Notes: a model not told the origin generated them from the sequence alone. A stretch of 64,000 nt of DNA from Acidimicrobiia bacterium (GCA_011523635.1 WTGI01000013.1:17177-81176); one strand, 5' to 3'; positions 3,610 to 28,425 are shown, numbered from the stretch's first letter. Made by a program: numbers and translations.

Positions 3610-3649
3610 TCAACTAGCAACTAGGAACTAGCAACTAGAAACTAGGAAC
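3610..3649. repeat. Tandem heptamer repeat (CAACTAG-like) x5.5 in the rarA-alaS intergenic region
   Basis: Direct read: CAACTAG CAACTAG GAACTAG CAACTAG AAACTAG GAACT. Stop codons are present in all six frames. Confidence 0.8.
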
Positions 3650-3668
3650 TGGCGCTAACCTGCATCGG

Positions 3669-6290
3669 ATGCGAGCCAATGCCATCCGGCGCGCCTTCAC
3701 CGACTTCTTCGCCGAGCGCCGCCACGTTGTCCGGCCGTCCGCGTCGTTGATCCCCACCGATCCCACCTTGCTGGTGACCAACGCCGGAATGGTCCCGTTC
3801 AAGCCCTATTTCCTGGGCGAGGAGGAGCCGCCCTGGCCCCGGGCGGTCAGCATCCAGAAGTGCGTGCGGACGGTCGACATCGACATCATCGGCACCACTG
3901 CTCGCCACCTGACCATGTTCGAGATGCTCGGGAACTTCTCGTTCGGTGATTACTTCAAGGAACTGGCCATTCGCTACGCCTTCGACTTCGTCACCGGGCC
4001 GCTCGGTCTGGATCCCGAACGTCTCTGGTACACGGTCTACAAGACCGATGACGAGGCGGAGGAAATCTGGATCGACTCGATAGGGGTTCCACCTGATCGG
4101 GTGCAGCGGGGCGGTAAGGACAACTTCTGGCAGATGGGCATTCCCGGTCCGTGCGGTCCGTGCTCGGAGATCTTCATCGACCGGGGCCCTGCCTACGGGC
4201 CTGACGGAGGCCCGATCGGTGGTGGCGAGGACCGGTTCGTGGAGCTCTGGAACCTGGTCTTCATGCAGAATATCCAGGATGAGCCCTATCACGTTGTCGG
4301 CGAAATCCCCGCCAAGGGGATCGATACCGGTACCGGGCTGGAGCGTCTGGCCATGATCCTCCAGGGAGTGGACACCCTCTTCGAGGCCGACTGCGTCCAT
4401 GACGTGCTGGCGGCCGCGTCGGGCGCCCTGGGCCGGACCTATGGAGAGGATGAACGGGTCGACGTGACGCTTCGCCTGCTCGCCGACCACGCCCGCGCAT
4501 CCACGTTCCTGATCGGCGACCGCGCCCTACCCGGAAACGAAGGCCGGGGTTACGTGGTGAGGCGCCTGATCCGTCGCGCGGTCCGCCACGCCTGGCAGCT
4601 GGGTAGCGAGAGCCTCATCATGCCCCGCCTGGCCGGGGTGACCGCCGACATCATGGAGGACGCCTACCCGGAACTGAAGGCCGACCTCGACTTCATCCAG
4701 CATGTCTTCGAGCGGGAGGAGTCCCGATTCCGGCGCACCCTCGCGGCCGGCACCCAGATGCTGGACGAGGCGCTGGTGGGTTCGGAGCCGGGCGGTGCCG
4801 TGTCCGGCGCTCTGGCCTTCAAGCTGCATGACACGTACGGCTTCCCGATCGACCTCACCCGGGAGATCGTGGAGGAGCAGCAGCGCGCGGTGGACCTGGA
4901 CGGATTCGAGGCCGAGATGGCCGCCCAGCGGGCCCGGGCCAAGGCCGCCTGGAAGGGGGGTGCGGAGGCGGTCCGCGTCGAGTCCTACAAGCGGATCCTC
5001 GACACCATCGGCCCCACCGACTTCCTGGGCTACATCAAGGATGATACGCCCGCCCTGATCCTCGCCATCCTCCGTGAGGGGGAGCTGGTGGAGAGGGCCG
5101 AGGAGGGTCAGGAGGTGGAAGTCTTCCTGGACAGGTCGCCCTTCTATGCCGAGGCCGGCGGGCAGGTGGGTGACGTCGGGCTGATCGAGTCGGTTACCGG
5201 ACGGATCGAGGTGGGCGACACGCAGGCGGCCGTGACCGGCTTGCACGGCCACCACGGCAGGGTGACGAGCGGCTCCGTCCAGACCGGCCAGGAAGTGGAT
5301 GCCCGTATCGACAGCCCCAGGCGAGACCGCATCCGCAAGGCCCACACCGGCACGCACCTTCTTCATTGGGCGCTCCGGGAAGTCATAGGGGGGCACGCCA
5401 ACCAGGCCGGTTCGCTGGTCCAGGACGGGCGCCTCCGGTTTGATTTCAACCACTACACGGCGGTGCCCGCCGAAGAACTCGGCGAGGTGGAGCAGTTGGT
5501 CAACCAGCGGGTAGTGGACAACCACCGGGTGGGCCTGCTCGAGACGTCCAAGGACGAGGCCGAGGCGATGGGGGCGCTGGCCTTCTTCGGCGACAAGTAC
5601 GGTGAGCGGGTGCGGGTGGTCTCGGTGGGCGACTTCTCGGTCGAGTTCTGCGGAGGCACCCATGTGGGCAGCTCGGCGGAGGTAGGGCCGCTGCTGGTCA
5701 CCTCCGAGTCCTCCATCGGATCGAACGTGCGCAGGGTGGAGGCTCTGACCGGTATGGCGGCCTACTCCCATGCCAGGGAAGCAAGGGAGCAACTGACCGA
5801 CGTAGGTCGTTTCCTCGGCCTGTCGATGTCGGAGGTTCCGGCAGGAGTGCGCCGGCTGGCCGAGCGGGCCGACGCCCTCCAGAGCGAATTGGATCAGCGC
5901 CGCCGGCAGGAGAGGACTGCGATCGCCGCCGATCTGGCCGGCGCCGCCCGGCGTACCGGGGATACCTCGTGGCTGGTGGCCGAACTCGACGATCATGCCC
6001 CGGTGGCGTTGCGCCAGGTGGGAGCGCAGGTCAGGGACCGGCTCGGGTCCGGTGTCGTGGTACTGGGTAGCCGGGCTGGCGGCAAGGGGGCGCTGGTCGG
6101 CCTGGCGACCCGTGATCTCGTCGACCAGGGTATTTCGGTGGCCGACCTGGTGCTGGTGGGCGCCAAGCTCCTCGGCGGAGGCGGCAGTCGCGATCCCGAA
6201 CTGTCACAGGCAGGCGGACCCAGGGGCGACAAGGTGGGCGAGGCTCTGGACGCGATTCGGGAGGCGGTGGCACGCCGTCTGAGTGCCTGA
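3669..6290 (+). CDS. alaS: Alanyl-tRNA synthetase
   Basis: 873-aa ORF with class II AlaRS editing and catalytic motifs, including the HTGTHLLH zinc-binding motif. Confidence 0.95.
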   Translation: MRANAIRRAFTDFFAERRHVVRPSASLIPTDPTLLVTNAGMVPFKPYFLGEEEPPWPRAVSIQKCVRTVDIDIIGTTARHLTMFEMLGNFSFGDYFKELAIRYAFDFVTGPLGLDPERLWYTVYKTDDEAEEIWIDSIGVPPDRVQRGGKDNFWQMGIPGPCGPCSEIFIDRGPAYGPDGGPIGGGEDRFVELWNLVFMQNIQDEPYHVVGEIPAKGIDTGTGLERLAMILQGVDTLFEADCVHDVLAAASGALGRTYGEDERVDVTLRLLADHARASTFLIGDRALPGNEGRGYVVRRLIRRAVRHAWQLGSESLIMPRLAGVTADIMEDAYPELKADLDFIQHVFEREESRFRRTLAAGTQMLDEALVGSEPGGAVSGALAFKLHDTYGFPIDLTREIVEEQQRAVDLDGFEAEMAAQRARAKAAWKGGAEAVRVESYKRILDTIGPTDFLGYIKDDTPALILAILREGELVERAEEGQEVEVFLDRSPFYAEAGGQVGDVGLIESVTGRIEVGDTQAAVTGLHGHHGRVTSGSVQTGQEVDARIDSPRRDRIRKAHTGTHLLHWALREVIGGHANQAGSLVQDGRLRFDFNHYTAVPAEELGEVEQLVNQRVVDNHRVGLLETSKDEAEAMGALAFFGDKYGERVRVVSVGDFSVEFCGGTHVGSSAEVGPLLVTSESSIGSNVRRVEALTGMAAYSHAREAREQLTDVGRFLGLSMSEVPAGVRRLAERADALQSELDQRRRQERTAIAADLAGAARRTGDTSWLVAELDDHAPVALRQVGAQVRDRLGSGVVVLGSRAGGKGALVGLATRDLVDQGISVADLVLVGAKLLGGGGSRDPELSQAGGPRGDKVGEALDAIREAVARRLSA

Positions 6291-6733
6291 TGAGCGCCGG
6301 ACCGGAAGGAGCCAGCCGCATCATGGGCATCGACTACGGAAGCCGGCGCGTGGGCGTTGCGCTTTCCGACCGTCTCGGTATCGCGGCCCATCCCTTCGGA
6401 GTGTTCGAGGCGGGCCCCGGGCTCGGACGCCGGTTGGCCGACCTGGTCGGCTCGGAGGATGTGGACAAGGTGGTGGTGGGGCTGCCGGTCTCGCTCGATG
6501 GCACCGAACAGGCGGCCGCCCGCAGGACCCGCCGGTTCGTCGATCGGCTCCGGCCCCTCGTGGGGGTGGACGTGGTCCTGTATGACGAGCGGCTCACCAC
6601 CCGGATCGCGGAAGGCGTCCTGGTGGCGGCCGGGACCTCCCGTGCTAAGCGCCGCCGACGGATCGACAAGGTGGCGGCCGCGGTGATGCTCCAGGGTTAT
6701 CTCGATAGCCAAGCCCGCGCGAGGGTCGAATGA
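6290..6733 (+). CDS. ruvX: Putative pre-16S rRNA nuclease / Holliday junction resolvase-like YqgF
   Basis: GIDYGSRRVGVALSD RNase H-like motif. The more likely start is ATG 6323 (MGIDYG), which has a GGAAGGAG SD upstream; the track start at 6290 overlaps the alaS stop. Confidence 0.85.
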   Translation: MSAGPEGASRIMGIDYGSRRVGVALSDRLGIAAHPFGVFEAGPGLGRRLADLVGSEDVDKVVVGLPVSLDGTEQAAARRTRRFVDRLRPLVGVDVVLYDERLTTRIAEGVLVAAGTSRAKRRRRIDKVAAAVMLQGYLDSQARARVE

Positions 6734-7857
6734 GTGCGTACCGGCGACCGGACGTTCCACCGGAGGGTTACAACCGAGGTCAGGACCGATTGCTTATCCG
6801 AGCCCGAGGCGCCATCACCGGCCTTCTCGTAGCTGCCGTCGTCGCCTACGCCCTGGTGGTGGGGGGCGCCGGCCTGGGCGACTGGGTCAACCGGCTGGGC
6901 GGGCTCCGTGGAGGGGATCAGACCGCCGAGGTCGAGCCGGGTCGCACCGTGGTGGTGGAAATCCCGTCAGGGTCCAGCGCCCGTAGCATCGCCGGCATCC
7001 TCGTGGGCAACGGCGTGGTGCCCTCCGCCATCGAGTTCGAGTCGTTGGTCCGGACGCGTGAGGCAGGCAGCCTCCTCAAGGCCGGTACCTACGAGTTGGT
7101 TACCGGGACCGACCTCGACGAGATCGTGGACCTCCTCATAGCGGGGCCGTCCCTCGATGTGTTCCGGGTGACGGTGGTTGAGGGACTCCGGCTCGCCGAG
7201 CTCCTGGACGTGCTGGCCCAGGCCACCCGCAACTATTCGGAGGAGGACTTCACGGCGGCCCTCCTGAGCGGGGACGTGACATCCGCCTACCTGCCCGTCG
7301 GTCTCGACAGGACGGTATGGGAGGGCCTCCTGTTCCCGGCTACCTACGAGTTCTTTGGTAACGCCACACCGGCCGAGATGCTGCAAAGGCTGGCTACCGA
7401 GCTGGAGCGACGTCTGGAGACGTACGACTGGTCCGCGGTTACCGGGCGAGGACTCTCGGTGTACGAAGGCCTGGTGATGGCCTCTCTGGTGGAGGCCGAG
7501 GCCGGTACGGATGAGGACCGGCCGCTGATCGCCAGCGTTATCAATAACCGGCTGGAGCGGGGCATGCCGCTCCAGATCGACGCCACCGTTCTCTACGCCA
7601 TGGCGGACCGGGGCCGGTCGCCGACGCTCGAGGACCTCCAGTTCGAGTCCCCTTACAACACCTACCTGATAGCCGGTCTCCCGCCGACGCCGATCGGTGC
7701 GGCAGGCGCCAAGTCCATCGAAGCGGTCATCGACCCGGCGGACACCGACTACCTCTATTACGTTCTCACCTCGGAGGACGGCGCCCACTCCTTCTTCAGC
7801 GACTACGACGACTTCCTGGTGGCCAAGCAGCAAGCGGACGCCCTGGGGATCGGCTGA
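6730..7857 (+). CDS. mltG: Endolytic murein transglycosylase MltG (YceG family)
   Basis: N-terminal TM helix followed by a YceG domain (…YLYYVLTSEDGAHSFFSDYDDF…). It occupies the conserved position after ruvX. Confidence 0.85.
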   Translation: MSAYRRPDVPPEGYNRGQDRLLIRARGAITGLLVAAVVAYALVVGGAGLGDWVNRLGGLRGGDQTAEVEPGRTVVVEIPSGSSARSIAGILVGNGVVPSAIEFESLVRTREAGSLLKAGTYELVTGTDLDEIVDLLIAGPSLDVFRVTVVEGLRLAELLDVLAQATRNYSEEDFTAALLSGDVTSAYLPVGLDRTVWEGLLFPATYEFFGNATPAEMLQRLATELERRLETYDWSAVTGRGLSVYEGLVMASLVEAEAGTDEDRPLIASVINNRLERGMPLQIDATVLYAMADRGRSPTLEDLQFESPYNTYLIAGLPPTPIGAAGAKSIEAVIDPADTDYLYYVLTSEDGAHSFFSDYDDFLVAKQQADALGIG

Positions 7858-7862
7858 TCCGG

Positions 7863-8675
7863 ATGGTCGACCTCCGCCTGGCGGTCCTCGGCGACCCGGT
7901 GGCCCATTCGCTCTCGCCGGTCATCCACGCCGCCGCGCTGGAGTTCGCCGGACTCGAGGGCACGTACAGCAGGCGCCGGGTTGACCACCGCGGCATGAGA
8001 CGGGCGGCGGACGATCTCCGATCCGGGCGCCTGACCGGCGCCAACGTGACGATGCCCCATAAGGCTCTGGCAGCCGGGTTGGCCGACCGGCGCTCGGGAG
8101 CCGTGGTCCGCTCGGGCGGCGCCAATACCCTCTGGATGGAGGACAGCCGGCTTCATGCCGACTCCACCGACCCCCAAGGGGTGCGCTTCGCCTGGCGGCA
8201 CGCCCGACTCCCGGCCGATGCTCCGGTGTTGCTGCTGGGCGCGGGTTCCGCCGCCGCCGCGGCCCTCCTGGCTCTGGCCGATCACGAGGTCTTCGTGGCG
8301 GCGCGGCGTCCGGAAGCAGCCCATCAGCTGGTAGCCCGAGTGGGCGCCACGGCCGGGGTGGCTCCGTGGGGGGAGCCGGTGCCGGGTGCGGTACTGGTCA
8401 ACGCCACCCCGCTCGGCATGCGTGGCGAGGCCCTCCCGGCCGGCGTGTTGGACGAGGCGGGGGGTCTGGTGGAACTGGCCTACGGCGGCGGGCCGACCCC
8501 GGCCGAAGCTGTGCTGGCGGCGCGGAACCTGCCGGTCGCGTCGGGGGAGTTGGTGCTGGTCGGCCAGGGGGCGGCTTCGTTCGCCATCTGGACCGGTGTG
8601 GAGGTGCCTCCTAGCGTCATGCTGGCGGCGCTCGCCGGACACGGCGATCCGCCCACCGAGCCCGCGACCCGCTAG
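7863..8675 (+). CDS. aroE: Shikimate dehydrogenase
   Basis: N-terminus LAVLGDPVAHSLSPVIHAAA, and a Rossmann GAGSAAAAA motif. Confidence 0.85.
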   Translation: MVDLRLAVLGDPVAHSLSPVIHAAALEFAGLEGTYSRRRVDHRGMRRAADDLRSGRLTGANVTMPHKALAAGLADRRSGAVVRSGGANTLWMEDSRLHADSTDPQGVRFAWRHARLPADAPVLLLGAGSAAAAALLALADHEVFVAARRPEAAHQLVARVGATAGVAPWGEPVPGAVLVNATPLGMRGEALPAGVLDEAGGLVELAYGGGPTPAEAVLAARNLPVASGELVLVGQGAASFAIWTGVEVPPSVMLAALAGHGDPPTEPATR

Positions 8676-8839
8676 TGGTCTGTCTGCGAAACAGCTCGGC
8701 GTGTTATGGCGGTCATCGGAGTCCCGTCGCTGCGTTCCGCTTCCTTGACGTACCGCTGCGGGTACGCCTTCGTCAGCGGGCCTTGCGAGGAACACCGCTG
8801 CCGACGCCATACCACACCGCCATTCCGCAGACAGACCAC
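8675..8839. repeat. 165-bp element bounded by a perfect 14-bp inverted repeat (GTGGTCTGTCTGCG ... CGCAGACAGACCAC), with internal hairpins
   Basis: Direct read of arms at 8675-8688 and 8826-8839. There is an internal GTACC-GCTGCG-GGTAC hairpin. The element lies between the aroE stop and the peptidase start. Confidence 0.7.
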
Positions 8840-8844
8840 TGACG

Positions 8845-9585
8845 GTGCCGCTCTACCTGGTCGCGGGAGTTCTGGGCCTGTTTGCGGGCCGACTGCTGGT
8901 GAGCCTGATCCGGGCCGAGCTGGAGCGGGCGCCGTTCAGGTCGGCATTGGCCTGCCGTCCGATCTGCGGCTGTCCCGTCCGACCGGCGGACTTCGTGCCT
9001 CTCTGGTGGTGGGCGGGAAGCGTGGACTTCTGTCCACGATGCCACCGGCCGGCCGGAGCTTTCTACCGGTTGGTGGAGCCGGTGACTGCAGTTGCCTGGG
9101 CCGGGACGGTCGGGTTGGTCGGCGTGCGGTGGACCCTGGCATCGTTTCTCTGGATGGTGACGGTGACGGTGGCGCTGAGCTTCGTCGATCTCCGGAGCTA
9201 CCGCCTTCCCAACCGGGTGCTCGTACCCGGCACCGCGGTTGGTTTGCTACTGCTCTCGGGCGGCGCGCTTCTGGACGGTCGGATCGGCGACGTGCCGGAA
9301 GCTTTGGCCAGCGGCCTCGGTTACTCCGTCGCGCTGCTGGTCCCGGCGCTGGCGACCCGAGGAGCCATCGGGATGGGCGACGTCAAGCTGGCCCTCCTGC
9401 TGGGGCTGTTCGCCGGCTACAGCGGCTGGGCAACCGCCGTGGCGGCCCTGGTGGGCGCGTTCCTGCTGGCCGGAGCAGTGGGCGTCCTGCTGCTGGTCCT
9501 GCGCCGCATCACCCGCCACGATCACCTGCCGTTCGGCCCCTTCATGGTCGCCGGCGCCTGGTTCGCGATAGCTCTTGGTTTCTAG
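8845..9585 (+). CDS. Type IV prepilin peptidase (A24 family)
   Basis: Multi-TM protein with GMGDVKL and PFGPFM motifs, plus an N-terminal Cys-rich region (CRPICGCP...CPRC). GTG start. Confidence 0.8.
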   Translation: MPLYLVAGVLGLFAGRLLVSLIRAELERAPFRSALACRPICGCPVRPADFVPLWWWAGSVDFCPRCHRPAGAFYRLVEPVTAVAWAGTVGLVGVRWTLASFLWMVTVTVALSFVDLRSYRLPNRVLVPGTAVGLLLLSGGALLDGRIGDVPEALASGLGYSVALLVPALATRGAIGMGDVKLALLLGLFAGYSGWATAVAALVGAFLLAGAVGVLLLVLRRITRHDHLPFGPFMVAGAWFAIALGF

Positions 9586-9593
9586 TTCCCATA

Positions 9594-9635
9594 TAACTAT
9601 CAACTATTAACTATCAACTAGCAACTATCAACTAG
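9594..9635. repeat. Tandem heptamer repeat (CAACTAT/CAACTAG) x6 in the peptidase-argS intergenic region
   Basis: Direct read: AACTAT CAACTAT TAACTAT CAACTAG CAACTAT CAACTAG. Confidence 0.8.
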
Positions 9636-9661
9636 TGATTGCTGTATCCTGCCGGGTTCGT

Positions 9662-11425
9662 ATGGGCCTTCTCTCGGATCTGACCAGGATCGTGGCGGCC
9701 GGCTTCGAAGCCGCCGGTCTCGATGCCTCGTTCGGCGGCGTTCAGGTCTCGGATCGTCCCGACCTGGGCCAGTTCCAATGCAACGGCGCGCTGGCCGCCG
9801 CTCGGAGCGCCGGTCGTAGCCCTCGCGACATAGCCGGGGAAGTGGTGAGGTGGATCGAGGGCGACCACAGGCTCGCTTCGGTTTCGATCGCCGGGCCGGG
9901 TTTCATCAACCTGACCGTGACCGGTCGGACCCTCGCCGACGGCGTGGACGCCATGGCGCGGGACGAGAGGTTGGGGGTGCCCCCGGTCCGGCAACCGCTT
10001 AACGTGATAGTGGACTATGCGGGGCCGAACGTCGCCAAGGCGATGCATGTCGGGCACCTTCGGGCCACGATCATCGGGGACACGCTCAAGCGGCTGTTCC
10101 GCTTCGCCGGACACGAGGTGCTGGGAGACGCCCACTTCGGTGACTGGGGCCTGCAGATGGGCATGCTCATCGTGGCTACCCGCCGGCGCCATCCCGACCT
10201 GGCTCACTTCGACGGATCCTACGAGGGTCCCTACCAAGACCCCCTCGACGTCACCCTGGCCCATCTCCAGGAGTGGTATCCGGAGATGGCCCGGCAAGTC
10301 GCCGATGACGAGGCGGTGGCCGCGGAGGCCCGGCTTGCCACCACCGAGCTCCAGTCGGGCCGGCCCGGGTACGTGGCCATCTGGGAGCACTTCGTCCGGG
10401 TGTCCCGTGCCTCCCAGGAGCAGGACTTCTCCGACCTGGGGGTGGAGTTCGACCTCTGGTACGGGGAGAGCACCGTCCGGGATCTGCTTCGACCGCTGGT
10501 CGATGACACCCTTGCCCGGGGGATCGCGGTCCGTTCGGAAGGAGCGGTCGTGATCGACGTGAGCCGGCCTGACGACAAGGCCGAGATCACGCCCCTCGTG
10601 CTGGAGACCTCCCACGGGGCCTTCCTCTACGGCACCACCGACGTGGCCACCATCCAGATGCGGGTCTCGGAACTCGGGGCGGACCTGATCCTCTACGTCG
10701 TCGACTCCCGCCAGTCCTACCACCTCGAGCAGGTGTTCCGGGCCGCCCGCCGGGCAGGCTTGTCCGGCGGGGCAGTCATGGAGCACATCGGATTCGGAAC
10801 CATGAACGGGCCGGATGGAACCCCTTTCAAGACGCGTGAGGGCGGCGTGCTCAGGCTGGGAGATCTGATCGAGACGGTTACGGAGGCCGCGGCGGCCCGC
10901 CTGGAGGAGTCGGATCTGGCAGCCCGGTATTCCGGGGCCGAGCGGGAGCTGATCGCCCGCCAGGTCGGTATCGCCGCCCTCAAGTTCGGCGACCTGGTCA
11001 ACAACCGCACCTCCAACTACGTCTTCGACGTGCGCCGCTTCACCGCGCTGGAAGGTAAGACCGGTCCCTACCTGCAGATGGCGACCGTGCGCATGGATTC
11101 GATCCTGGCGCGGGCCTCCCGCCAGGGATTGGCGCCGGGTACCGTCCTGCCGCCGCGCCACGAGACGGAGACCAGGCTCGTGCTACGCCTCCTCCAGCTA
11201 CCCGAGGTGATCGACCGGGCCATTGAACTGCGCGCCCCCAACCATCTGGCTGAGTTCGCCTACGAGGTGGCGGCCGACTTCAGCCGTTTCTACGAGGCCT
11301 GCCACATCCTGACCGAGCCCGACCCCGGGCTGCAGTCCTCATGGTTGGGGACGGTCCGGACCACGCGCCGGGTGCTGGAACTCCTGCTCGACCTGCTGGG
11401 TATCGAAGTTCCGGCTCGCATGTAG
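9662..11425 (+). CDS. argS: Arginyl-tRNA synthetase
   Basis: Class I HIGH motif (HVGHLRATIIGD) and a DALR anticodon-binding C-terminus. ATG 9662 (MGLLSDL) is preferred; the track start is 9635. Confidence 0.9.
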   Translation: MGLLSDLTRIVAAGFEAAGLDASFGGVQVSDRPDLGQFQCNGALAAARSAGRSPRDIAGEVVRWIEGDHRLASVSIAGPGFINLTVTGRTLADGVDAMARDERLGVPPVRQPLNVIVDYAGPNVAKAMHVGHLRATIIGDTLKRLFRFAGHEVLGDAHFGDWGLQMGMLIVATRRRHPDLAHFDGSYEGPYQDPLDVTLAHLQEWYPEMARQVADDEAVAAEARLATTELQSGRPGYVAIWEHFVRVSRASQEQDFSDLGVEFDLWYGESTVRDLLRPLVDDTLARGIAVRSEGAVVIDVSRPDDKAEITPLVLETSHGAFLYGTTDVATIQMRVSELGADLILYVVDSRQSYHLEQVFRAARRAGLSGGAVMEHIGFGTMNGPDGTPFKTREGGVLRLGDLIETVTEAAAARLEESDLAARYSGAERELIARQVGIAALKFGDLVNNRTSNYVFDVRRFTALEGKTGPYLQMATVRMDSILARASRQGLAPGTVLPPRHETETRLVLRLLQLPEVIDRAIELRAPNHLAEFAYEVAADFSRFYEACHILTEPDPGLQSSWLGTVRTTRRVLELLLDLLGIEVPARM

Positions 11426-11565
11426 GCCTCGCCACCGGGCGCCTAGACCACTAAGAGGGTGCCGAAAAAGACGGGAGTGTATTTGGCCCCCGACGGTTTG
11501 ACCTGGGGTTGTGAGATCGGACACGGGCCAAACCGGACATTTTTCAGTACCCTCCTCGCTCCTGC

Positions 11566-12204
11566 TCAACCGCTCCGGTATTCCAGGATGACGAGGAGCA
11601 TCCAGGGCGCGTAGAGCAGGGAAGCAACGTTGCCGGCGATCCACGGGTAGCGGGGTGCTCCGTACTGGAGGGCCGGCCACGCCAGCGCCAGGGCGATCAA
11701 GCCTGCTGGCCAGGCCCGGCCGCCGACCACGCCCAGATAGGCCGGCACGAGGTCGAACAATTCGGAGAAGCGGGCCAGAGTCGAGGTTGCCAAACCTGCC
11801 AGCCGGCCGGTCACCCAGATGCCGACCAGAATGGCCGGCACCCAGGTAAGCAGCGTCTCCCACGGCTCGGCCTCCACCCGCAGAACGGAGGGCCCGAGGC
11901 CCCACTCGGTGGCCATCCCTATGACCGCCGCGCCGAGCATCAACACTGCTACCCCGACCGCCAGGACTTCGGACTCGGGCGGCGCCAGGTCGAGTGTGAG
12001 CAGGCCGAACCCACCCAGGGCCAGCCCGATCCCCATTCCGGCGAGTCCGGTGCCGATGACCGCCAGGACCACCCCGAGCACCATCCGCAGCGACTGCATG
12101 CCGATGGTCGCCCACCGCCAGACCTCGGAACCGGGCTGGAAGATCTGGGGGAGCAGCTCCAGGAGGTTCCGGCGCCGCCGGTCGTATGGCGGGTAGTCGG
12201 TCAC
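11566..12204 (-). CDS. Hypothetical polytopic membrane protein
   Basis: 212 aa, hydrophobic, about six TM segments. It overlaps the glcF stop by 4 nt, suggesting an operon. Confidence 0.55.
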   Translation of the reverse strand: MTDYPPYDRRRRNLLELLPQIFQPGSEVWRWATIGMQSLRMVLGVVLAVIGTGLAGMGIGLALGGFGLLTLDLAPPESEVLAVGVAVLMLGAAVIGMATEWGLGPSVLRVEAEPWETLLTWVPAILVGIWVTGRLAGLATSTLARFSELFDLVPAYLGVVGGRAWPAGLIALALAWPALQYGAPRYPWIAGNVASLLYAPWMLLVILEYRSG

Positions 12205-13448
12205 CTCACGGCAGCCTGTCTATCGGCTCGCTGCAGTGCTTCCCAGTAGATCTCCACCGGATGAGCGACCCGGGCCGCGTGCCCGAGTTCGCTCAGATAC
12301 GAGCGCAGCTGGATCTCGCATCCCGGATTGGCGCTGGCCACGAGAGGTGCTCCGGTCGCTTCCACCTGTTCCGCCTTCGACGAGCCGAGGCGGCGCGACA
12401 TCTCAGGTTCCAGCACGCTGTAGATGCCCGCCGCGCCACAACACAGGCCACTCGGGTCGATCTCGACCACGGTCAGACCGGCCGCGGCCAGGATTGCCCG
12501 GGGCTGGTCGGTAATCCGTTGCACGTGCCGGAGATGGCACGGGTCCTGCACCGCCACCAGGCCGCCATCGGCGCTCAATCGGGGAAGCCTCCCGTCGGTG
12601 ATCGCCTCCGCCACCACCTCGTTCACGTCGGCAACCCTGGCGGCGAGTTCCTCCCCGCCGTCAACCCAATGGTCGTACTCCTTCATGTGGGCCCCGCATC
12701 CGGCCGAGTTGACGACCACCAGGTCCGCACCCCGGAAGGCCGCCATATTCACGGAGGCCATCTTCCGGGTGTCATCCGCCCAGCCGTCATGCGCGGCGAG
12801 CGCTCCGCAACAGGTTTGACTCCGGGGTGAGACGACCTCCCACCCGGCCGCCGCCAGCAGCTCGACGGTGGCCGTGTGTACATCGCCGAACCAGGCGTCC
12901 ATGACGCAACCGGCCACCAGAGCGGCCACCCCCCGTTTCTCCCCCTCCGCGGCCCTGATCCTCCCCACGATCGAGGGAGGCCTTGCTTTGAGCGGTCGGA
13001 GCCCGGTCAGGTTGCCCCGGATCCGGCGCGGCGCCACCCTGGTCAGCTGGAGCGACTGGGCGATCGATGCGGCCAGCGTCCCCAATCGAACCGCCGTCCG
13101 GCTACGCAGCAGGCGGGCCGTCACCAGCCGCCGGAGCCGGCGGTCGATTCCTGAGGTCTGGGCGGCTATCTCGGCTCTCGCTCCCTCCATGGCTCGGCCG
13201 AACGGAACGAACGACGGGCAGACGACCTCGCAGGCGCGGCACTGCAGGCATGCCCCCATGATCTCCTCGAAGCGGCCGTCCACGGGTCGTCCGGCGGCGA
13301 CTGCCGACATCGCGGTCAGCCTCCCTCGCGGCGAGGCGGTCTCGAGTCCAGTCAGCCGGAAGGTGGGGCAGCTGGGCAGGCACAGCCCGCACTGGATGCA
13401 TGAGGAGAGCTCGTCCTCTCGTGGCGCGTAGCGGGTAACCCAACTCAT
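12201..13448 (-). CDS. glcF: Glycolate oxidase iron-sulfur subunit (CCG-domain Fe-S oxidoreductase)
   Basis: Two 4Fe-4S ferredoxin motifs (CIQCGLCLPSCP, CLQCRACEVVCP) and C-terminal CCG domains. Confidence 0.85.
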   Translation of the reverse strand: MSWVTRYAPREDELSSCIQCGLCLPSCPTFRLTGLETASPRGRLTAMSAVAAGRPVDGRFEEIMGACLQCRACEVVCPSFVPFGRAMEGARAEIAAQTSGIDRRLRRLVTARLLRSRTAVRLGTLAASIAQSLQLTRVAPRRIRGNLTGLRPLKARPPSIVGRIRAAEGEKRGVAALVAGCVMDAWFGDVHTATVELLAAAGWEVVSPRSQTCCGALAAHDGWADDTRKMASVNMAAFRGADLVVVNSAGCGAHMKEYDHWVDGGEELAARVADVNEVVAEAITDGRLPRLSADGGLVAVQDPCHLRHVQRITDQPRAILAAAGLTVVEIDPSGLCCGAAGIYSVLEPEMSRRLGSSKAEQVEATGAPLVASANPGCEIQLRSYLSELGHAARVAHPVEIYWEALQRADRQAAVR

Positions 13449-13449
13449 C

Positions 13450-14574
13450 TCAGATACGGCCGGGCAGGATGCCCCGGTTGATCCTGCGGCCGGGATCGAA
13501 CAGGTCGACGATGCGCCGCTGGATCTCGATCGATGGGGGCGGCGTTCCCCACGGGTCGAATGCCCGGGCTACGGACGCGGGCGCGTCCAGCATCACCAGA
13601 GCGCCTCCGAGGGACTCGGCCCGGCCTCTCAATTCTTCGAGTTCCTCGAGGCCGACCGCGTCGGCGGCGACCGTCACCTCGCCGACTCCGAACTGGGCCA
13701 GGTACCTCCAGCCCGGGTCGAGGCGATCGACGATGCCACGCAGGGAGGAGGGAGGGGTCCGCACCGAGAAGCGAACCGCTCCGGACGGATGGTTCGGCCA
13801 GTCCAGCCCGGCGGCGGGTTCGGCGCCCAGCGCGGATGCCTGGCCTGCCACCTCCTCGGGGGTACCTCCGAGGAATACGGCGGCGCCCTCGCGGGTCTCC
13901 AACACGGCGAGAGGCCGATAGGCCACCTCGAGTGCCTCCTCAGGGGACTCCACTGGCACGGTTGCGGATGCCTGGGGGACCGGCCATAGCTTGAGGCAGA
14001 CCCGGGCGATCAGGCCCATGGCTCCGAGCGAGCCGGTGGCGAGGCGGGGGATGTCGTACCCGGTCACGTTCTTCACCACCCGGCCGCCGGCGGTGACCAC
14101 CCGCCCGTCGCTGGACACCAGGGTCGTCTCCAGCACCCGGTCCCGGATAGGGCCGTACCGGAAGCGCCGCCATCCGGATGTGGCGGTGGCGACAGCCCCT
14201 CCCACCGTGCCGGTTCCGGGTTGCTCGGGCAGCAGCGCGGTCTGGCCCTTCGACGCGAGCATCTGTTCGAGTTCCTCGACCAGGACGCCGGCCTCCACGA
14301 CCACGGTCAGGTCGTCCGGTTCCCAAGCCACCACGCGATCCAGCCGGGATGTGGAAAGGACCACGTCGGACGTCACCTGGTGTCCGATGCCGCGGTGCGA
14401 GCCGCCACCGTGGATCCGGATGCGGTCTCCTCCGGCCGGCAGGTTGGCCATCAGGCCGGCTGCCTCCTCGATGGTCTCGGGCGCGGCGGTCGGTAGGCCC
14501 GAGCCCCCATCCGCAGAGGTGGCGAGGCTCAAACCCAGGCTCCCACCGGTGGCGGACGGCCGAAGTCGAAGCAT
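13450..14574 (-). CDS. glcE: Glycolate oxidase FAD-binding subunit
   Basis: FAD-binding PCMH domain (RIRIHGGGSHRGIG). The start is uncertain; the track start overlaps glcD by 45 nt. Confidence 0.75.
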   Translation of the reverse strand: MLRLRPSATGGSLGLSLATSADGGSGLPTAAPETIEEAAGLMANLPAGGDRIRIHGGGSHRGIGHQVTSDVVLSTSRLDRVVAWEPDDLTVVVEAGVLVEELEQMLASKGQTALLPEQPGTGTVGGAVATATSGWRRFRYGPIRDRVLETTLVSSDGRVVTAGGRVVKNVTGYDIPRLATGSLGAMGLIARVCLKLWPVPQASATVPVESPEEALEVAYRPLAVLETREGAAVFLGGTPEEVAGQASALGAEPAAGLDWPNHPSGAVRFSVRTPPSSLRGIVDRLDPGWRYLAQFGVGEVTVAADAVGLEELEELRGRAESLGGALVMLDAPASVARAFDPWGTPPPSIEIQRRIVDLFDPGRRINRGILPGRI

Positions 14575-15959
14575 CGTGAGCCCTGCGGCACGATCTTGCC
14601 GGGGTTCAGCTTTCCGTCGGGATCGAAAGCCTCGCGGATGCGCGCCTGGGCATCGAGGTCCATCTCGTCGAAGACCAGGTGCATGTAGTCCCGCTTCTCC
14701 ATGCCGATGCCGTGCTCACCGGACAGCGAGCCGCCGATGGCCACGCACACCTCGATGAGGTCTCTCCCGGCCGCGTCCACCCGTTCCATGACCCCAGGAA
14801 TCGAAGCATCGAACGACATGAGCGGATGCAGGTTGCCGTCGCCTGCGTGGAATACGTTCAGCATCGGGATGTCGTGACGCTTCGAGATGGCGTAGGTCTG
14901 CTCTATGGCTTCCACCAGCCGGGTCCGGGGTACCACGGTGTCGTGCAGGTAGTAGTCGGGGTTCATCTGGGCGATGGCGCCGAAGGCGGACTTGCGACCC
15001 AACCAGATCCGCTTCCGTTCGGCCTCGTCGGAGGCGATCCTCGTCAGGGTGGCCCGATGGGAGACGGCCAGCCGGCGCACCAGCTCGGCCTCGGCGTCCA
15101 CCGCTGACGGGTGCCCGGTCACCTCGGCGATCAGCACGGCCGCCGCCTCGGTGGGAAAGCCGGCGTTTGCGAAACGCTCCACCGCGATCGTCATCGGCTG
15201 GTCCATCATCTCGAGGGCTGCCGGGATCAGCCCGTTGGCGATGATCCCCGAGACGGTGGCGGCCGCGTTCTGCACCTCGGGAAAGGCGAGGAGGATGGTG
15301 CGGGACGCGGGCGGGTTGGGGAGCAGGTTCACCAGGGCGTCGGTGACGATGCCGAGCGTTCCCTCGGAGCCCACCATCAAGCCGCGTACATCGAGCCCGA
15401 TCGGATCCGGCGCCGGCCCGCCTATCGACACGATGTCGCCGTCCGGTGTCACGATCTCCATCGCGAGCACGTGGTTGACGGTGGTGCCCTCGGCCAGGCA
15501 GTGCGGCCCCCCCGAGTTGTTGGCCACGTTGCCCCCGATCGTGCAAACCGACTGGGAGGAGGGATCGGGCGCGTAGTGGAGCCCGAACGGGGTAGTGTGG
15601 ATGCTGAGGTCCAGGTTGATGACCCCGGGCTGCACCCAGACGCACCTGTTCTCGACATCGACGGGGCCGATCCGGTTCATCCGGGTGGTGACCAGTAGCA
15701 CGTGGGGCCCCGTGGTGACCGCTCCACCTGCCAGGCCGGTTCCCGACCCGCGCGGTACCACCGGCACGCCGTGACGCCCGGCGAGGCGCATGATCGTGGC
15801 TACCTCGCCGGTACTGCGGGGGAAGACAACCAGGCCCGGCTCGCCGCGTACCAGCCCGGAATCCTTGCCGAACACGTAAAGGTCGAGCGGATCCGAGGCC
15901 ACCTGCTCGTCACCGAGCTTGCGGCGCAGTTCTAGTTCGAGTTCGGGAGACGGGACCAC
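14529..15959 (-). CDS. glcD: Glycolate oxidase subunit GlcD (FAD-linked oxidase)
   Basis: 476 aa with FAD_binding_4 (VVPRGSGTGLAGGAV) and an FAD-oxidase C-terminus. Confidence 0.85.
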   Translation of the reverse strand: MVPSPELELELRRKLGDEQVASDPLDLYVFGKDSGLVRGEPGLVVFPRSTGEVATIMRLAGRHGVPVVPRGSGTGLAGGAVTTGPHVLLVTTRMNRIGPVDVENRCVWVQPGVINLDLSIHTTPFGLHYAPDPSSQSVCTIGGNVANNSGGPHCLAEGTTVNHVLAMEIVTPDGDIVSIGGPAPDPIGLDVRGLMVGSEGTLGIVTDALVNLLPNPPASRTILLAFPEVQNAAATVSGIIANGLIPAALEMMDQPMTIAVERFANAGFPTEAAAVLIAEVTGHPSAVDAEAELVRRLAVSHRATLTRIASDEAERKRIWLGRKSAFGAIAQMNPDYYLHDTVVPRTRLVEAIEQTYAISKRHDIPMLNVFHAGDGNLHPLMSFDASIPGVMERVDAAGRDLIEVCVAIGGSLSGEHGIGMEKRDYMHLVFDEMDLDAQARIREAFDPDGKLNPGKIVPQGSRCFDFGRPPPVGAWV

Positions 15960-16029
15960 AGAGCGGAATGGTAGTGGTTAGGGGTTGTCCAACCGGGGGC
16001 AGGGTTAACATCGCGGCAAAGGAGGTCTG

Positions 16030-16287
16030 GTGCCGATCGTCCCCCAATACACCCCCAATCCCAACGCGCTGAAATTCAGCGTCGGGATGGAGGTGGGCGG
16101 TCCCCGTAGCTACGTGCCGGCCAACGCGGGAGACGACCCCGTGGCTGGCGAACTTTTCGGGATCGAGGGAGTGATGAGCGTCTTCATGACCGCCGACTTC
16201 GTCACCGTCACCAAGGAACCCGATGCCGATTGGTCCGGCATCGAACCTGCTGTCGTGGTCATCCTCGAGAGGTACTTTCCGGACTAG
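16030..16287 (+). CDS. Nfu/NifU N-terminal-domain Fe-S scaffold-like protein
   Basis: 85 aa; PNPNALKF motif. An AAGGAGG SD precedes a GTG start. Confidence 0.7.
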   Translation: MPIVPQYTPNPNALKFSVGMEVGGPRSYVPANAGDDPVAGELFGIEGVMSVFMTADFVTVTKEPDADWSGIEPAVVVILERYFPD

Positions 16288-16311
16288 ACAGACCACAAGT
16301 ACGATTCTGGT

Positions 16312-17181
16312 GTGGAGTCAGGCGCAGCACGTCCGGGCCAGGAGGAGCGGCTGCTCTGCGCTCTTAGAGCTATTCGATCCGGCGACGCGGACGGGCTTCG
16401 AGCGGTTCTCGACAGTGCCCCGGAGTTGGTGAACTTGGCGGTGGGTGGCTACACGTTGCTCGAACTGATGACGCAACCCGAAGCCGGACCTGCCTCACCC
16501 GAACTAGTCGAAGTGCTGATCGACGCCGGTGCCGAACTGGATCGGGCCTTGAATCTCGCTGCCTGCTGGAATCTGGCGGATCTCTGCTCCCAACTCCTGG
16601 CGGCCGGCGCCGACCCGACCGCCCGAGCCGACGCCGGCATCACGCCGCTGGAGTCGGCCGCCATGCACAGCTCCACCGAGGCCGCCGACGTGCTGGTAGA
16701 GCATGGACTCCACCGGCACACGCTTTGGCTGGCCGCGGCTGCGGGCCTGCTGCCGATGGTCAGGAATTGGGTGGCGACCGACGGTTCGCTGCTGGCGGAC
16801 CCGGGCCCCTACCGGCCGGACTGGGCCGACGTGGGCAGACCTGTCGGCCGTCCGCCGACCGATGACCCGGCAGAAGTCCTGGACGAGGCCTTCGTGCTGG
16901 CCGCGGCCAACGACCGGAAGGAGGTCGTCGATTACCTCCTGGGTGCGGGGGTGGATGTCGACGCGCGCCCGTACCGGAATACGACCGCCTTGCACTTCGC
17001 CATCCAGTTCGGCCAACTCGAAATGGTACGGCACCTTCTCCGCCAAGGGGCATCCGTCACCATCGAGGATGACACGTACCGTTCGGACGCCGCCGGTTGG
17101 GCGCAGGCGTGCGAGAGTGGCAGCGAGGACGGGGTCGAGATCCACCGACTGGTCAGCGCGGCCCGTTCAAACCGCCCGTAG
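16312..17181 (+). CDS. Ankyrin-repeat protein
   Basis: Several ANK repeats (GYTLLELM, GITPLESAAMHSSTEAADVLVEHG, NTTALHFAIQFGQLEMVRHLLRQGASV). GTG start. Confidence 0.7.
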   Translation: MESGAARPGQEERLLCALRAIRSGDADGLRAVLDSAPELVNLAVGGYTLLELMTQPEAGPASPELVEVLIDAGAELDRALNLAACWNLADLCSQLLAAGADPTARADAGITPLESAAMHSSTEAADVLVEHGLHRHTLWLAAAAGLLPMVRNWVATDGSLLADPGPYRPDWADVGRPVGRPPTDDPAEVLDEAFVLAAANDRKEVVDYLLGAGVDVDARPYRNTTALHFAIQFGQLEMVRHLLRQGASVTIEDDTYRSDAAGWAQACESGSEDGVEIHRLVSAARSNRP

Positions 17182-17423
17182 CCGACTGGCCCGTCGCGAA
17201 GGCCTCGATCGTCGGGCTTCTGGCCGGCGCGGCCTGGCAGATACGGGGACCAGGGTCACAGATGGGCCTCGTGTGTAACGCAAGAAACAGGCCTCCGATG
17301 CGAGTCCCAGCAGTGCTTGTATCACCGCTGCGGTGACCAGCCGACCGTACAGGCCGCTCCGTATCGCCTGTGGGCGGACTCGCACCGTCCCCGCAGGCGT
17401 AGCGTCATCGGGAAACCCGTCGA

Positions 17424-18284
17424 TCAACGTGTCACGGGCCAGCCGATACCGGCCGAGTCCACGACCCAAGCCAGCTCGGTCTCCGGCAGTGGGATCAACA
17501 CCGCCTCGGTCGGCGCCGAGATCTCGGGTAGCGAAAGGGCACGTACCTCGCCGTCCGGCTCTACTCGGAGGTCGACTTCCACCCGTTCCACAGGAAGCCG
17601 CCGGAAGCCGACCCCGTCCGGCGCCACCAGCCGGCGGATCAGCACGAGGGCTCGGTAGGTGTCCGGTCCGGTCTGCGTCACGGATCGGGTCCGGGTCCAC
17701 TCCACGTAGGAGACGGTCTCGGCGCTGGACGGCTCAGGCGCCGCCCCGTCGGGCAGCCGGAGGCCCGAAGCGGCCTGCACCCGCTCGGCCCACACCTCCG
17801 AGGGGTCGATGGTGAAGAACTCCAGCACCAGCCATTCGGCGGTGCCCGCCAAGGCCCGCTCCGTACCCTCCCGGTCGACCGCCATGAGGTCGGCCTCCGA
17901 GAGCCGGGGGGTGACCTCCGGCTCGGCCAGGGCCACGGTGGCCGGCGCCGGTCCCTGGTCAGCCATGCGCGGGAGGGTGGTGGTGGCCAGCGGCTCGGAG
18001 GCGACGGCAATCGGGGTGACCGGCACCAGATCCGGTGCCGAAGGCCGGTTGATCTGGCGGAAGACGACCACGCCCAGCACCACCACGATCAGGCCGGCCG
18101 CGATGCCGTAGACCAGTATCTTGCGGTCGGGTTGGGGTGGGATGGTGAGCTGCTCCCAAGGTATGTGCTCGCTCACCTGGTCGTCGGTTGCGGGTGGGAG
18201 GTTTGGCACGGGCTGACCCTTTCGTTCCTCCCGGTGCCGACGAACATCGCGCGTCCGGACAACATACCCCGAATACCCGGGCAT
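17424..18284 (-). CDS. Hypothetical membrane-anchored protein (single TM, extracytoplasmic domain)
   Basis: 286 aa; TM helix ILVYGIAAGLIVVVLGVVVF. No recognisable domain. Confidence 0.5.
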   Translation of the reverse strand: MPGYSGYVVRTRDVRRHREERKGQPVPNLPPATDDQVSEHIPWEQLTIPPQPDRKILVYGIAAGLIVVVLGVVVFRQINRPSAPDLVPVTPIAVASEPLATTTLPRMADQGPAPATVALAEPEVTPRLSEADLMAVDREGTERALAGTAEWLVLEFFTIDPSEVWAERVQAASGLRLPDGAAPEPSSAETVSYVEWTRTRSVTQTGPDTYRALVLIRRLVAPDGVGFRRLPVERVEVDLRVEPDGEVRALSLPEISAPTEAVLIPLPETELAWVVDSAGIGWPVTR

Positions 18285-18359
18285 TAACAGCCCCGCCGGA
18301 CGACCTGCCGGCCAGGGATAACCGGAAACCGGTCGCGTGCGGACTAACGTTGTTCGCTA

Positions 18360-19021: not shown

Positions 19022-19135
19022 CGTCTCCGGGAACCCCTTCCCGGCTAGCTCGACTGGAGAATCGACGGCTCGGTTGTCCGGCCGTTCGCCGTGGGACGCC
19101 TCCGCTCTCACCGAGTCCACCGACCAACAGCCCCC

Positions 19136-22335: not shown

Positions 22336-22363
22336 CAACTAGCGACTAGCGACTAGCGACTAG
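22336..22363. repeat. Tandem heptamer repeat CAACTAG + (CGACTAG)x3 overlapping the erpA stop codon
   Basis: Direct read: CAACTAG CGACTAG CGACTAG CGACTAG. The last TAG is the erpA stop on the minus strand. Confidence 0.8.
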
Positions 22364-28419: not shown

Positions 28420-28425
28420 TAACAG

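What the first reader, a model, noticed from the sequence alone, without database searches (positions are those of the whole stretch)
8675..8839. 165-bp structured element bounded by perfect 14-bp terminal inverted repeats immediately upstream of the prepilin peptidase gene
GTGGTCTGTCTGCG (8675-8688) and its exact reverse complement CGCAGACAGACCAC (8826-8839) flank 137 bp containing further local hairpins (for example GTACC-GCTGCG-GGTAC). The left arm abuts the aroE stop and the right arm ends 5 nt before the peptidase GTG start. It could be a MITE-like insertion, a large leader or attenuator RNA, or an operator pair. None of the neighbouring CDS accounts for it, and no ORF inside it looks genuine.
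Basis: seen in the sequence. Interest (0 to 1): 0.55.

Follow-up and report, generated by a model that had tools for sequence, protein, structure and literature searches.

The report
Mobile palindromic repeat (MITE) at aroE stop
The 165-bp hairpin between aroE and the prepilin peptidase gene is one copy of a small non-coding mobile repeat (a MITE) that has spread through sponge-associated Acidimicrobiia; this is a known kind of element, though the family is undescribed and has some odd features.

Summary
Window 8675-8839 is bounded by a perfect 15-bp inverted repeat and folds into one long rod hairpin. It is not a regulator specific to the peptidase gene.

A strain of the same species (96-99% nt identity) joins aroE directly to the peptidase gene (TAG GCG GTG). 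That strain carries a 90%-identical copy 2.6 kb away, downstream of argS. At least 20 further loci in sponge metagenomes and MAGs hold full copies, internally deleted minis, or tandem arrays of 3-5 units. One copy sits in frame inside a glycosyltransferase gene.

The flanks are TA, often CTA[...]TAG. TA lies on both sides in 6 of 16 loci and on at least one side in all 16. This fits TA duplication at CTAG targets, such as the one formed by the aroE stop codon.

I file it as a new MITE family, closest in behaviour to ERIC, Correia, RUP and RPE elements. No parent transposase was found.

Three features are unusual. The apical ~63 nt are nearly invariant while the arms covary. Pairing tolerates G.U on one strand only. 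Some sites keep only the last 6-10 nt of one end.

Interest is moderate to low.

The parts
8675..8839 (-). Full-length copy (165 nt) of the palindromic mobile repeat. The canonical (better-pairing) strand is the window minus strand: GTGGTCTGTCTGCGGAATGG...CAGACAGACCAC.
   Evidence: Top covariance-model and nhmmer match. Rod hairpin. Absent from the same site in L003, L004 and L092.
8674..8688 (+). Left terminal inverted repeat arm (15 nt, perfect).
8826..8840 (+). Right terminal inverted repeat arm (15 nt, perfect reverse complement of 8674-8688).
8727..8789 (-). Apical module (canonical positions 51-113): CTCGCAAGGCCCGCTGACGAAGGCGTACCCGCAGCGGTACGTCAAGGAAGCGGAACGCAGCGA. It is nearly invariant in all subfamilies, although the arms diverge.
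   Evidence: Per-column conservation of 33 copies. Alignment of 14 diverse copies.
8673..8674 (+). TA flank, formed by the first two bases of the aroE TAG stop. The empty allele reads CGC TAG GCG GTG, which contains a CTAG target. The expected second TA is degraded to TG at 8840-8841.
   Evidence: Empty sites. Flank table. The L005 relic at the same site has TA on both sides.
7863..8675 (+). aroE (shikimate dehydrogenase). Its stop codon is regenerated by the first G of the element.
   Evidence: Pfam Shikimate_dh_N and SDH_C; ORF list.
8845..9585 (+). Peptidase A24 (prepilin peptidase-like) gene. In alleles without the element its GTG start lies 3 nt after the aroE stop.
   Evidence: Pfam Peptidase_A24. 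Conserved start in L003 and L092.
8675..8842 (+). 55-codon open frame running through the whole element. Its GTG overlaps the aroE TAG, and its TGA lies 2 nt before the peptidase GTG. It may relay translational coupling (inferred only). It is not a conserved protein.
   Evidence: ORF list. Frameshifting indels among copies. Few stop codons on this strand, 0-1 in most copies, against a window mean of 2.8.
11445..11451 (+). 7-nt remnant (AGACCAC, followed by TA) of a second copy downstream of argS. Strain L003 has the full copy at this position.
   Evidence: L003 7573-8810 aligns to window 11445-12682.
15954..15971 (+). Scraps of the element (GACCAC ... GCGGAATGG) at the site where the 88%-identical syntenic contig L092 has a full copy.

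Best explanation
Window 8675-8839 is one copy of a non-autonomous, non-coding mobile palindromic repeat (a MITE) that has spread in sponge-associated Acidimicrobiia. It has terminal inverted repeats and no transposase of its own, so it must be moved in trans. It inserts at TA dinucleotides, preferentially within CTAG, and duplicates the TA. That target preference is the signature of IS630/Tc1-mariner-type DDE transposases; the enzyme type is inferred and no enzyme was identified. CTAG is rare in this GC-rich genome and often arises at TAG stop codons. The copy here landed exactly on the aroE stop, regenerated it, and split the formerly coupled aroE-peptidase gene pair by 169 nt. After insertion, copies decay by apex-centred internal deletions (minis), expand into head-to-tail tandem arrays, or are almost completely lost. 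At this locus the element is probably co-transcribed with the operon as its weaker-pairing, nearly stop-free strand. The 55-codon frame (GTG overlapping the aroE TAG, TGA 2 nt before the peptidase GTG) may let ribosomes carry translational coupling across it (inferred). Shown: mobility, copy number, TA/CTAG flanks, structure conservation. Inferred: the enzyme class and any effect on expression.
For: Presence/absence: L003 (same species, 96-99% nt identity) has an empty aroE site and instead carries a 90%-identical copy after argS. L004 and L092 are also empty at aroE, and L092 carries its copy at a third site. Copy number: a 19-nt arm pattern hit more than 15 distinct loci in sponge metagenomes. 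A six-frame protein query found 18 called ORFs that read through copies or arrays. The covariance model found 33 full-length copies in 16 sources. More than one copy per contig occurs in L117 and L138. Flanks: TA at 22 of 32 flanks against a 1.6% TA background; both sides in 6 of 16 loci and at least one side in all 16; typically CTA[..]TAG. The in-frame GT39 insertion adds 163 nt plus TA, which equals 55 codons, at CGG CTA|GGT. Non-coding: 1-2-nt indels between copies. No Rfam family matches. These traits match the list for bacterial MITEs in PMC2229807.
Against: No autonomous element or transposase with matching ends was found in any fetched locus, nor among proteins sharing words with the element's translations. 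In 10 of 16 loci one of the two TA flanks is imperfect, including the window copy (TA...TG). The most conserved part is the apex rather than the ends. Pairing is kept along the entire arms, with wobble tolerance on one strand only; a transposase that binds double-stranded ends does not predict this. Tandem arrays with 1-nt or 6-nt junctions do not result from simple TA insertion.
Confidence: 0.85

Rival explanations
1. The family is a mobile element whose spread or retention depends on a single-stranded hairpin of one specific strand. This could be RNA, or ssDNA as in HUH/IS200-IS605-type or attC-like systems. The conserved apical module would then be a protein- or RNA-recognition site. The TA flanks would be secondary.
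For: All 7 first copies fold 24-37 kcal/mol better on the canonical strand. There are 225 G.T against 56 A.C cells in 32 distinct copies, about 10 columns have G.U as the majority pair, and none has A.C as the majority. There are 17 compensatory pairs against 9.6 in shuffles (0/500), and an independent RNAalifold run finds the same rod with 12 compensatory pairs. The apex is nearly invariant while the arms and ends differ between subfamilies. Remnants are asymmetric and keep only the canonical 3' end.
Against: True terminal inverted repeats and TA on both flanks are not features of IS200/IS605-type elements. No HUH, RAYT or reverse-transcriptase gene lies next to any copy. Copies are related by descent, so the shuffle controls overstate significance. 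With DNA energy parameters the strand difference is small (-53.2 against -44.2) and the rod is not the minimum-energy fold. There are no expression data.
Confidence: 0.2
2. It is a cis-regulatory RNA (leader, attenuator or processing hairpin) or a small RNA gene dedicated to the aroE-peptidase operon.
For: It is intergenic, highly structured, and ends 5 nt before the peptidase start codon.
Against: It is absent from the same junction in a 96-99% identical strain and in two 88-90% identical relatives, where the genes lie 3 nt apart. Copies sit next to unrelated genes: argS, gatC, ccmC, H+-PPase, dUTPase and inside GT39. No promoter-like or terminator-like site was found. No Rfam family matches.
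Confidence: 0.03
3. It is a pair of operator half-sites (protein-binding inverted repeat) controlling the peptidase gene.
For: A perfect 15-bp inverted repeat lies next to a start codon.
Against: The arms are 137 bp apart and are part of a continuous 64-pair rod. The same arms occur at more than 20 unrelated loci and in tandem arrays. The site is empty in close strains.
Confidence: 0.01
4. It is a minisatellite-like intergenic repeat (MIRU-like) that spreads by recombination and tandem duplication rather than by transposition.
For: Head-to-tail arrays of 3-5 units with periods of 162-167 nt. Open frames run through the arrays and overlap the stop codon of the upstream gene.
Against: Single copies at many unlinked sites have exact element boundaries and TA/CTAG flanks. 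Insertion is polymorphic between strains at three sites within 8 kb. Whole arrays are themselves flanked by TA...TA, so arrays look secondary.
Confidence: 0.05

Closest known systems
ERIC / IRU (enterobacterial repetitive intergenic consensus, 127 bp)
   Same: A small non-coding imperfect palindrome with TA at its termini and a target-site duplication. It lies in transcribed intergenic regions, its transcript forms a long stem-loop, and some copies carry open frames or lie within genes (PMC2229807). Its effects on mRNA depend on orientation (PMC10969869). From my own knowledge, its central core is the best-conserved part, as here.
   Different: No sequence similarity, and a different phylum. 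The element here is GC-rich, has a 15-bp perfect TIR, and forms tandem arrays of 3-5 units. The one-strand wobble pattern has not, to my knowledge, been reported for ERIC.
Correia elements (NEMIS/CREE) of Neisseria
   Same: 100-155 bp with TIRs and TA duplication. Short (internally deleted) and long forms both occur. They are co-transcribed, and the hairpin is an RNase III substrate (PMC2229807; PMC10969869). No parent transposase is known.
   Different: Correia elements carry an IHF site and promoter elements and are AT-rich. No promoter-like site was found here. RNase III processing was not tested.
RUP (S. pneumoniae), mobilised by IS630-Spn1
   Same: A TA target, TIRs, about 107 bp, and multiple copies (PMC2229807). 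It is the model for mobilisation in trans by an IS630-type transposase.
   Different: RUP ends match a known IS. Here no IS with matching ends was found.
Rickettsia palindromic elements (RPE)
   Same: A palindromic repeat that can sit in frame inside protein-coding genes and be retained (PMC2229807). Here a 55-codon in-frame insertion in a GT39 glycosyltransferase is conserved in four orthologues.
   Different: Most copies here are intergenic. RPE generally lacks clear TA duplication.
MIRU (mycobacterial interspersed repetitive units)
   Different: MIRUs are 46-101 bp direct repeats without a whole-length hairpin, TIRs or TA flanks.
REP/BIME with RAYT, and IS200/IS605-derived PATEs
   Same: Hairpin-forming repeats for which one DNA strand matters. 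That is the nearest precedent for the strand asymmetry seen here.
   Different: Those are 20-40-nt hairpins or have subterminal hairpins, lack TIRs and TSDs, and are linked to an HUH enzyme gene. None of these was seen here.

Membership tests
Bacterial MITE (generic) | Small size (under about 300 bp) and no transposase gene | tested here: met
   The element is 165 nt. Copies differ by 1-2-nt indels, so no frame is conserved.
Bacterial MITE (generic) | Terminal inverted repeats | tested here: met
   A 15-bp perfect repeat, and 23 nt at 87% complementarity. The ends GYGGTSTG...CASACCRC are kept in all subfamilies.
Bacterial MITE (generic) | Many dispersed copies in a genome or lineage | tested here: met
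   33 full-length copies in 16 sources, plus minis. Several copies per contig occur in L117 and L138. The total per genome could not be counted.
Bacterial MITE (generic) | Target-site duplication | tested here: met
   TA on both sides in 6 of 16 loci, and also at the L005 relic. One TA is present in the other 10 loci. The background TA frequency is 1.6%. The GT39 site gives CTA[163 nt]TAG, a 165-nt in-frame insertion. The window copy itself is imperfect (TA...TG).
Bacterial MITE (generic) | Filled and empty orthologous sites (evidence of movement) | tested here: met
   The aroE site is filled in the window, L001 and L002, and empty in L003, L004 and L092. The argS site is filled in L003. A third site is filled in L092.
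Bacterial MITE (generic) | A cognate autonomous IS with matching ends | tested here: not met
   A fuzzy TIR search of all fetched loci found only MITE-type copies. The six-frame word search found no transposase. The IS1595 gene in L143 has no matching ends. Many accepted MITE families also lack a known parent.
IS630/Tc1-mariner-mobilised MITE (RUP-like) | TA target, typically within CTAG, with TA duplicated | tested here: met
   CTA[..]TAG in L135, L136, L141 and L142. The empty aroE sites read CTAG in L003 and L004.
IS630/Tc1-mariner-mobilised MITE (RUP-like) | Ends similar to those of an IS630-family element in the same genomes | not testable with these tools
Rfam structured RNA family | Match to a curated covariance model at its gathering score | tested here: not met
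   No hit at E <= 1. Only tRNAs were found in the window. At E <= 10 only plant miRNA-precursor hairpins appear, at 13-22 bits against gathering scores of 70-168.
IS200/IS605-derived PATE or REP/RAYT | No TIR or TSD, subterminal or short hairpins, and a linked HUH enzyme | tested here: not met
   The inverted repeats reach the termini, the flanks are TA, and no HUH or RAYT gene appears among the called neighbours.
Peptidase-specific leader or operator | Conserved at this locus in relatives and confined to it | tested here: not met
   Absent from the locus in L003, L004, L092 and L006-L046, and present at unrelated loci.

The most novel reading that the evidence does not exclude
The family is more than a passive MITE. 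It would be a mobile single-stranded hairpin module. A ~63-nt apical domain is under strong purifying selection, and a ~50-bp stem is maintained by compensatory and wobble (G.U) changes on one strand only. Its propagation or its retention by the host would then work through an RNA (or ssDNA) structure recognised at the apex. The recurrent remnants that keep only the canonical 3' end would reflect an asymmetric, strand-specific excision chemistry.
Probability: 0.22. Interest if true: 0.6.

Novelty: new member of a known kind. Interest (0 to 1): 0.36.

Why it matters
It explains an odd intergenic hairpin as a mobile repeat, so it should not be annotated as a regulator of the peptidase gene.

It also defines a previously undescribed repeat family in uncultured sponge symbionts. 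The family marks strain-level variation: three polymorphic sites lie within 8 kb. It targets CTAG at stop codons, can be tolerated in frame inside a membrane enzyme, and builds arrays that gene callers mistake for proteins. At least 18 database 'proteins' are read through it.

The strand-specific wobble covariation and the invariant apex, if functional, would make this a tractable case of a mobile element selected at the single-strand level.

Tried and rejected
- **Rfam.** Searched the region and the whole window, including a permissive search of the element alone. No family matched.
- **Promoter and terminator scan.** Nothing found.
- **Other copies in the window.** None are full length; only two remnants, found later.
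- **Viral contigs, phage records and plasmid records.** No match.
- **Soil-metagenome hits.** About 30 hits to the 19-nt arm pattern are an internal stretch of an IS1380-like transposase gene (YCQRGQMENLIKLHK motif, recognised from my own knowledge; Pfam not run). The match is not at an IS end, so I treat it as coincidence multiplied by IS copy number.
- **Parent transposase.** A fuzzy TIR search of all loci found none. The IS1595 gene near the L143 array has no matching ends. The six-frame word search returned no transposase.
- **Coding hypothesis.** The 55-aa frames are rejected as genes because of frameshifting indels. Stop-codon depletion on the reverse strand is only weakly unusual: P(0 stops) is about 0.07 for random 165-nt windows.
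- **Transcription-linked mutation bias.** Considered as the cause of the G.T excess. By my own reasoning it predicts the opposite strand, so I rejected it.
- **Exact TSD at the window copy.** Could not be reconciled with a clean TA duplication (TA...TG, plus changes just before the peptidase start).

Full report
**Observation.** The reported repeat is real. GTGGTCTGTCTGCG (8675-8688) and its reverse complement (8826-8839) are present. The perfect match is 15 bp (8674-8688 / 8826-8840), and the arms extend imperfectly to 23 nt. With up to two mismatches the 15-mer occurs only at these two places in 64 kb; 0.13 matches are expected by chance. The whole interval is a single rod-like hairpin rather than two arms around unrelated sequence. 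As RNA the minus strand folds at -116.8 kcal/mol (z -9.05) and the plus strand at -87.9 kcal/mol (z -4.73). I call the better-pairing strand (window minus) the canonical strand: GTGGTCTGTCTGCGGAATGG...CAGACAGACCAC.

**Context.** The gene order is alaS, ruvX, mltG/yceG (6730-7857), aroE (7863-8675), the element, a peptidase A24 gene (8845-9585) and argS (9635-11425). The first G of the element is the last base of the aroE TAG stop. The organism is an uncultured sponge-associated member of the Acidimicrobiia. The best genome match is MAG RHO1_bin_64 (JAPPGU010000036, locus L003), and more distant relatives are labelled Candidatus Spongiisociaceae.

**It is an insertion, and it moves.**
- L003 is 96-99% identical to the window in nucleotide sequence. 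Even so, it joins aroE to the peptidase gene directly (CGC TAG GCG GTG CCC).
- L003 carries a 90%-identical copy in the opposite orientation 2.6 kb away, just after argS.
- At that argS position the window keeps only AGACCAC followed by TA (11445-11451).
- Two relatives at 88-90% identity (L004, L092) also have an empty aroE junction with the same conserved GTG start.
- L092 is syntenic with window 5737-19043 and has its copy at a third place. There the window retains only scraps (15954-15971).
- L005 (87% aroE identity) has a ~45-nt mini-hairpin at the aroE stop, made of the two ends of the element and flanked by TA on both sides.
- Three polymorphic sites within 8 kb between close relatives show mobility and rule out a regulator dedicated to the peptidase gene.

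**It is a dispersed family.**
- A scan of metagenome contigs for 19 nt of one arm gave 52 stretches.
- About 30 of these are soil contigs in which the match lies inside an IS1380-like transposase gene. I treat that as coincidence.
- The rest come from sponge metagenomes. The LXNI and MKWU accessions are cited in a Mediterranean sponge metagenome study, PMC5099237.
- These sponge hits include full copies at 83-95% identity, internally deleted minis of 42-90 nt with different breakpoints, and head-to-tail arrays.
- A six-frame translation of the element, used as a protein query, returned 18 database 'proteins'. These are reading frames called through copies.
- Several of them are tandem arrays of 3-5 units with periods of 162-167 nt (L135-L139, L143).
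- A covariance model built from seven copies found 33 full-length canonical-strand copies in 16 sources.
- Nothing similar was found in viral contigs, phage records or plasmid records.
- No Rfam family matched. At E <= 10 only generic plant miRNA-precursor hairpins appear, far below their gathering scores.

**Target site.**
- Sixteen loci have two genuine genomic flanks. TA lies on both sides in 6 and on one side in the other 10. That is 22 of 32 flanks, against a TA frequency of 1.6% in the window.
- The usual form is CTA[element]TAG. Whole arrays are flanked the same way.
- The empty aroE sites in L003 and L004 read CTAG.
- CTAG is 3.5-fold under-represented in the window (55 observed, 194 expected). 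It often arises at TAG stops, which explains why copies sit exactly at gene ends and regenerate the stop codon.
- The cleanest case is inside a GT39/PMT_2-type glycosyltransferase gene (L142). The sequence CGG CTA|GGT has become CGG CTA[163 nt]TA GGT, which adds exactly 55 codons in frame.
- That insertion is conserved in four orthologues at 83-91% identity (P0009-P0012) and absent from closer and more distant orthologues.
- This behaviour fits TA duplication at CTAG, the preference known for IS630/Tc1-mariner transposases. RUP is the bacterial precedent (PMC2229807).
- No transposase with matching ends was found. The enzyme class is therefore an inference.
- The window copy has one imperfect flank (TA...TG) and small changes just upstream of the peptidase start that I cannot fully reconstruct.

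**Structure and conservation.**
- The rod is conserved. On the 33-copy alignment 93.8% of cells pair.
- 17 pairs show compensatory changes against 9.6 +/- 1.5 in shuffles (0 of 500 shuffles reach the observed value).
- Sliding the partners by 1-3 columns drops pairing to 29-49%.
- That alignment was fitted to the model. An independent MAFFT/RNAalifold run on 14 diverse copies recovers the same rod with 12 compensatory pairs.

Two features are not expected of a plain MITE.
- *Strand-specific wobble tolerance.* There are 225 G.T cells against 56 A.C cells. About ten columns have G.U as the majority pair and none has A.C as the majority. Every copy tested folds 24-37 kcal/mol better on the canonical strand. 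With DNA parameters the difference is small (-53.2 against -44.2), which points to RNA more than ssDNA if the asymmetry is functional.
- *Invariant apex.* The apical ~63 nt (window 8727-8789) are almost invariant even in subfamilies whose arms and ends have changed, for example GTGGTGTGACTCGG...CCGAGTCACACCAC in L138 and GCGGTCTGCCCACC... in L137.

Because copies are related by descent, these statistics overstate independence. I treat the single-strand reading as a rival at about 0.2, not as established.

**Coding capacity and orientation.** Copies differ by 1- and 2-nt indels, so no frame is conserved. The reverse strand has few stop codons, 0-1 in most copies against a window mean of 2.8 per 165 nt, but P(0) is about 0.07, so this is weak evidence. 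Where both neighbours point the same way, the canonical strand is antisense to them in 10 loci and sense in 2. Part of this count rests on my crude GC3 gene calls. The count is suggestive only, and there is some ascertainment bias from the protein-based search.

**Consequence at this locus (inferred).** In the empty allele the peptidase GTG lies 3 nt after the aroE stop, an arrangement typical of translational coupling. In the window the two are 169 nt apart and the mRNA would contain the weaker hairpin. A 55-codon frame starts at the GTG overlapping the aroE TAG and ends at a TGA 2 nt before the peptidase GTG. It could relay ribosomes through the hairpin. This was not tested.

**Decay products.** Minis with different, roughly apex-centred deletions recur (L089, L105, L117b, L129, L005, P0021). 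That is expected for unstable long palindromes. One pattern remains unexplained. At three sites only the last 6-10 nt of the canonical 3' end survive: window 11445-11451, window 15954-15959, and L144 with CTA|GACAGACCAC|TAG. At two of the three the deletion starts exactly at element nucleotide 1.

**Comparison and verdict.** In behaviour the family resembles several known elements (PMC2229807; PMC10969869; MIRU from my own knowledge).
- ERIC and Correia: TA flanks, long stem-loop transcripts, and short and long forms.
- RUP: TA target and an IS630 link.
- RPE: in-frame intragenic copies.
- MIRU: arrays within actinobacterial operons.

It shares no sequence with any of them, and I found no description of it in the searched literature. 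It meets the defining MITE features except for a known parent element. I classify it as a new member of a known kind. It is of moderate-to-low interest, with a modest chance that the strand-specific structure and invariant apex reflect a single-strand function.

Noticed in passing
window 11445-11451 and 15954-15971: Remnants of two further copies of the same element: AGACCAC followed by TA after argS, and GACCAC...GCGGAATGG in a divergent intergenic region. Close relatives (L003, L092) have full copies at these positions.
   Followed up: yes
L144 about 2581-2592; compare L142 11213-11375: An orthologue of the GT39 gene keeps CTA|GACAGACCAC|TAG, that is both TA flanks plus only the last 10 nt of the element, in frame (DRPL). 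Together with the two window remnants, this is a recurrent one-sided footprint that always keeps the canonical 3' end. The mechanism is unexplained.
   Followed up: partly
L142 11213-11375 (proteins P0009-P0012): A copy sits in frame (55 codons) inside a GT39/PMT_2-type membrane glycosyltransferase. It is conserved in four orthologues at 83-91% identity. P0021 has a mini version, and P0023 and others have none. This resembles the Rickettsia RPE elements.
   Followed up: yes
L135 10001-10660, L136 9985-10806, L137 9869-10596, L138 10184-10593 and 18379-18781, L139 10046-10600, L143 10047-10542: Head-to-tail tandem arrays of 3-5 units (period 162-167 nt) are called as 200-280-aa 'proteins' in public databases. 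Junctions are either a single nucleotide (GACCAC-T-GTGGTC) or TATCGC/TTTCGA replacing the first GTG.
   Followed up: partly
window 3611-3652, 22336-22366, 28425-28455: Three intergenic tandem runs of a heptamer containing CTAG: (A/G)ACTAG(C/G/A) repeated 4-5 times. They account for 13 of the 55 CTAG sites in the window. Their function is unknown.
   Followed up: no
whole window: CTAG is 3.5-fold under-represented (55 observed, 194 expected from base composition). The TA dinucleotide occurs at 1.6% against 2.7% expected.
   Followed up: partly
L083, L086, L087, L090 and about 25 other soil-metagenome loci: A 19-21-nt identity to the element's arm lies inside a conserved IS1380-like transposase gene (…YCQRGQMENLIKLHK…AAIPQTDP…). 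It is not at an IS end and is judged coincidental. Pfam was not run on it.
   Followed up: partly
L143 12261-14470: An IS1595-family transposase gene lies next to an HNH/N6_N4 methyltransferase gene, about 3 kb from an element array. Its surroundings show no ends resembling the element.
   Followed up: partly
L005 4799-4843: A ~45-nt mini-hairpin made of the two ends of the element sits at the aroE stop of an 87%-identical relative and is flanked by TA on both sides. It is either an independent insertion at the same CTAG or an old shared one.
   Followed up: partly
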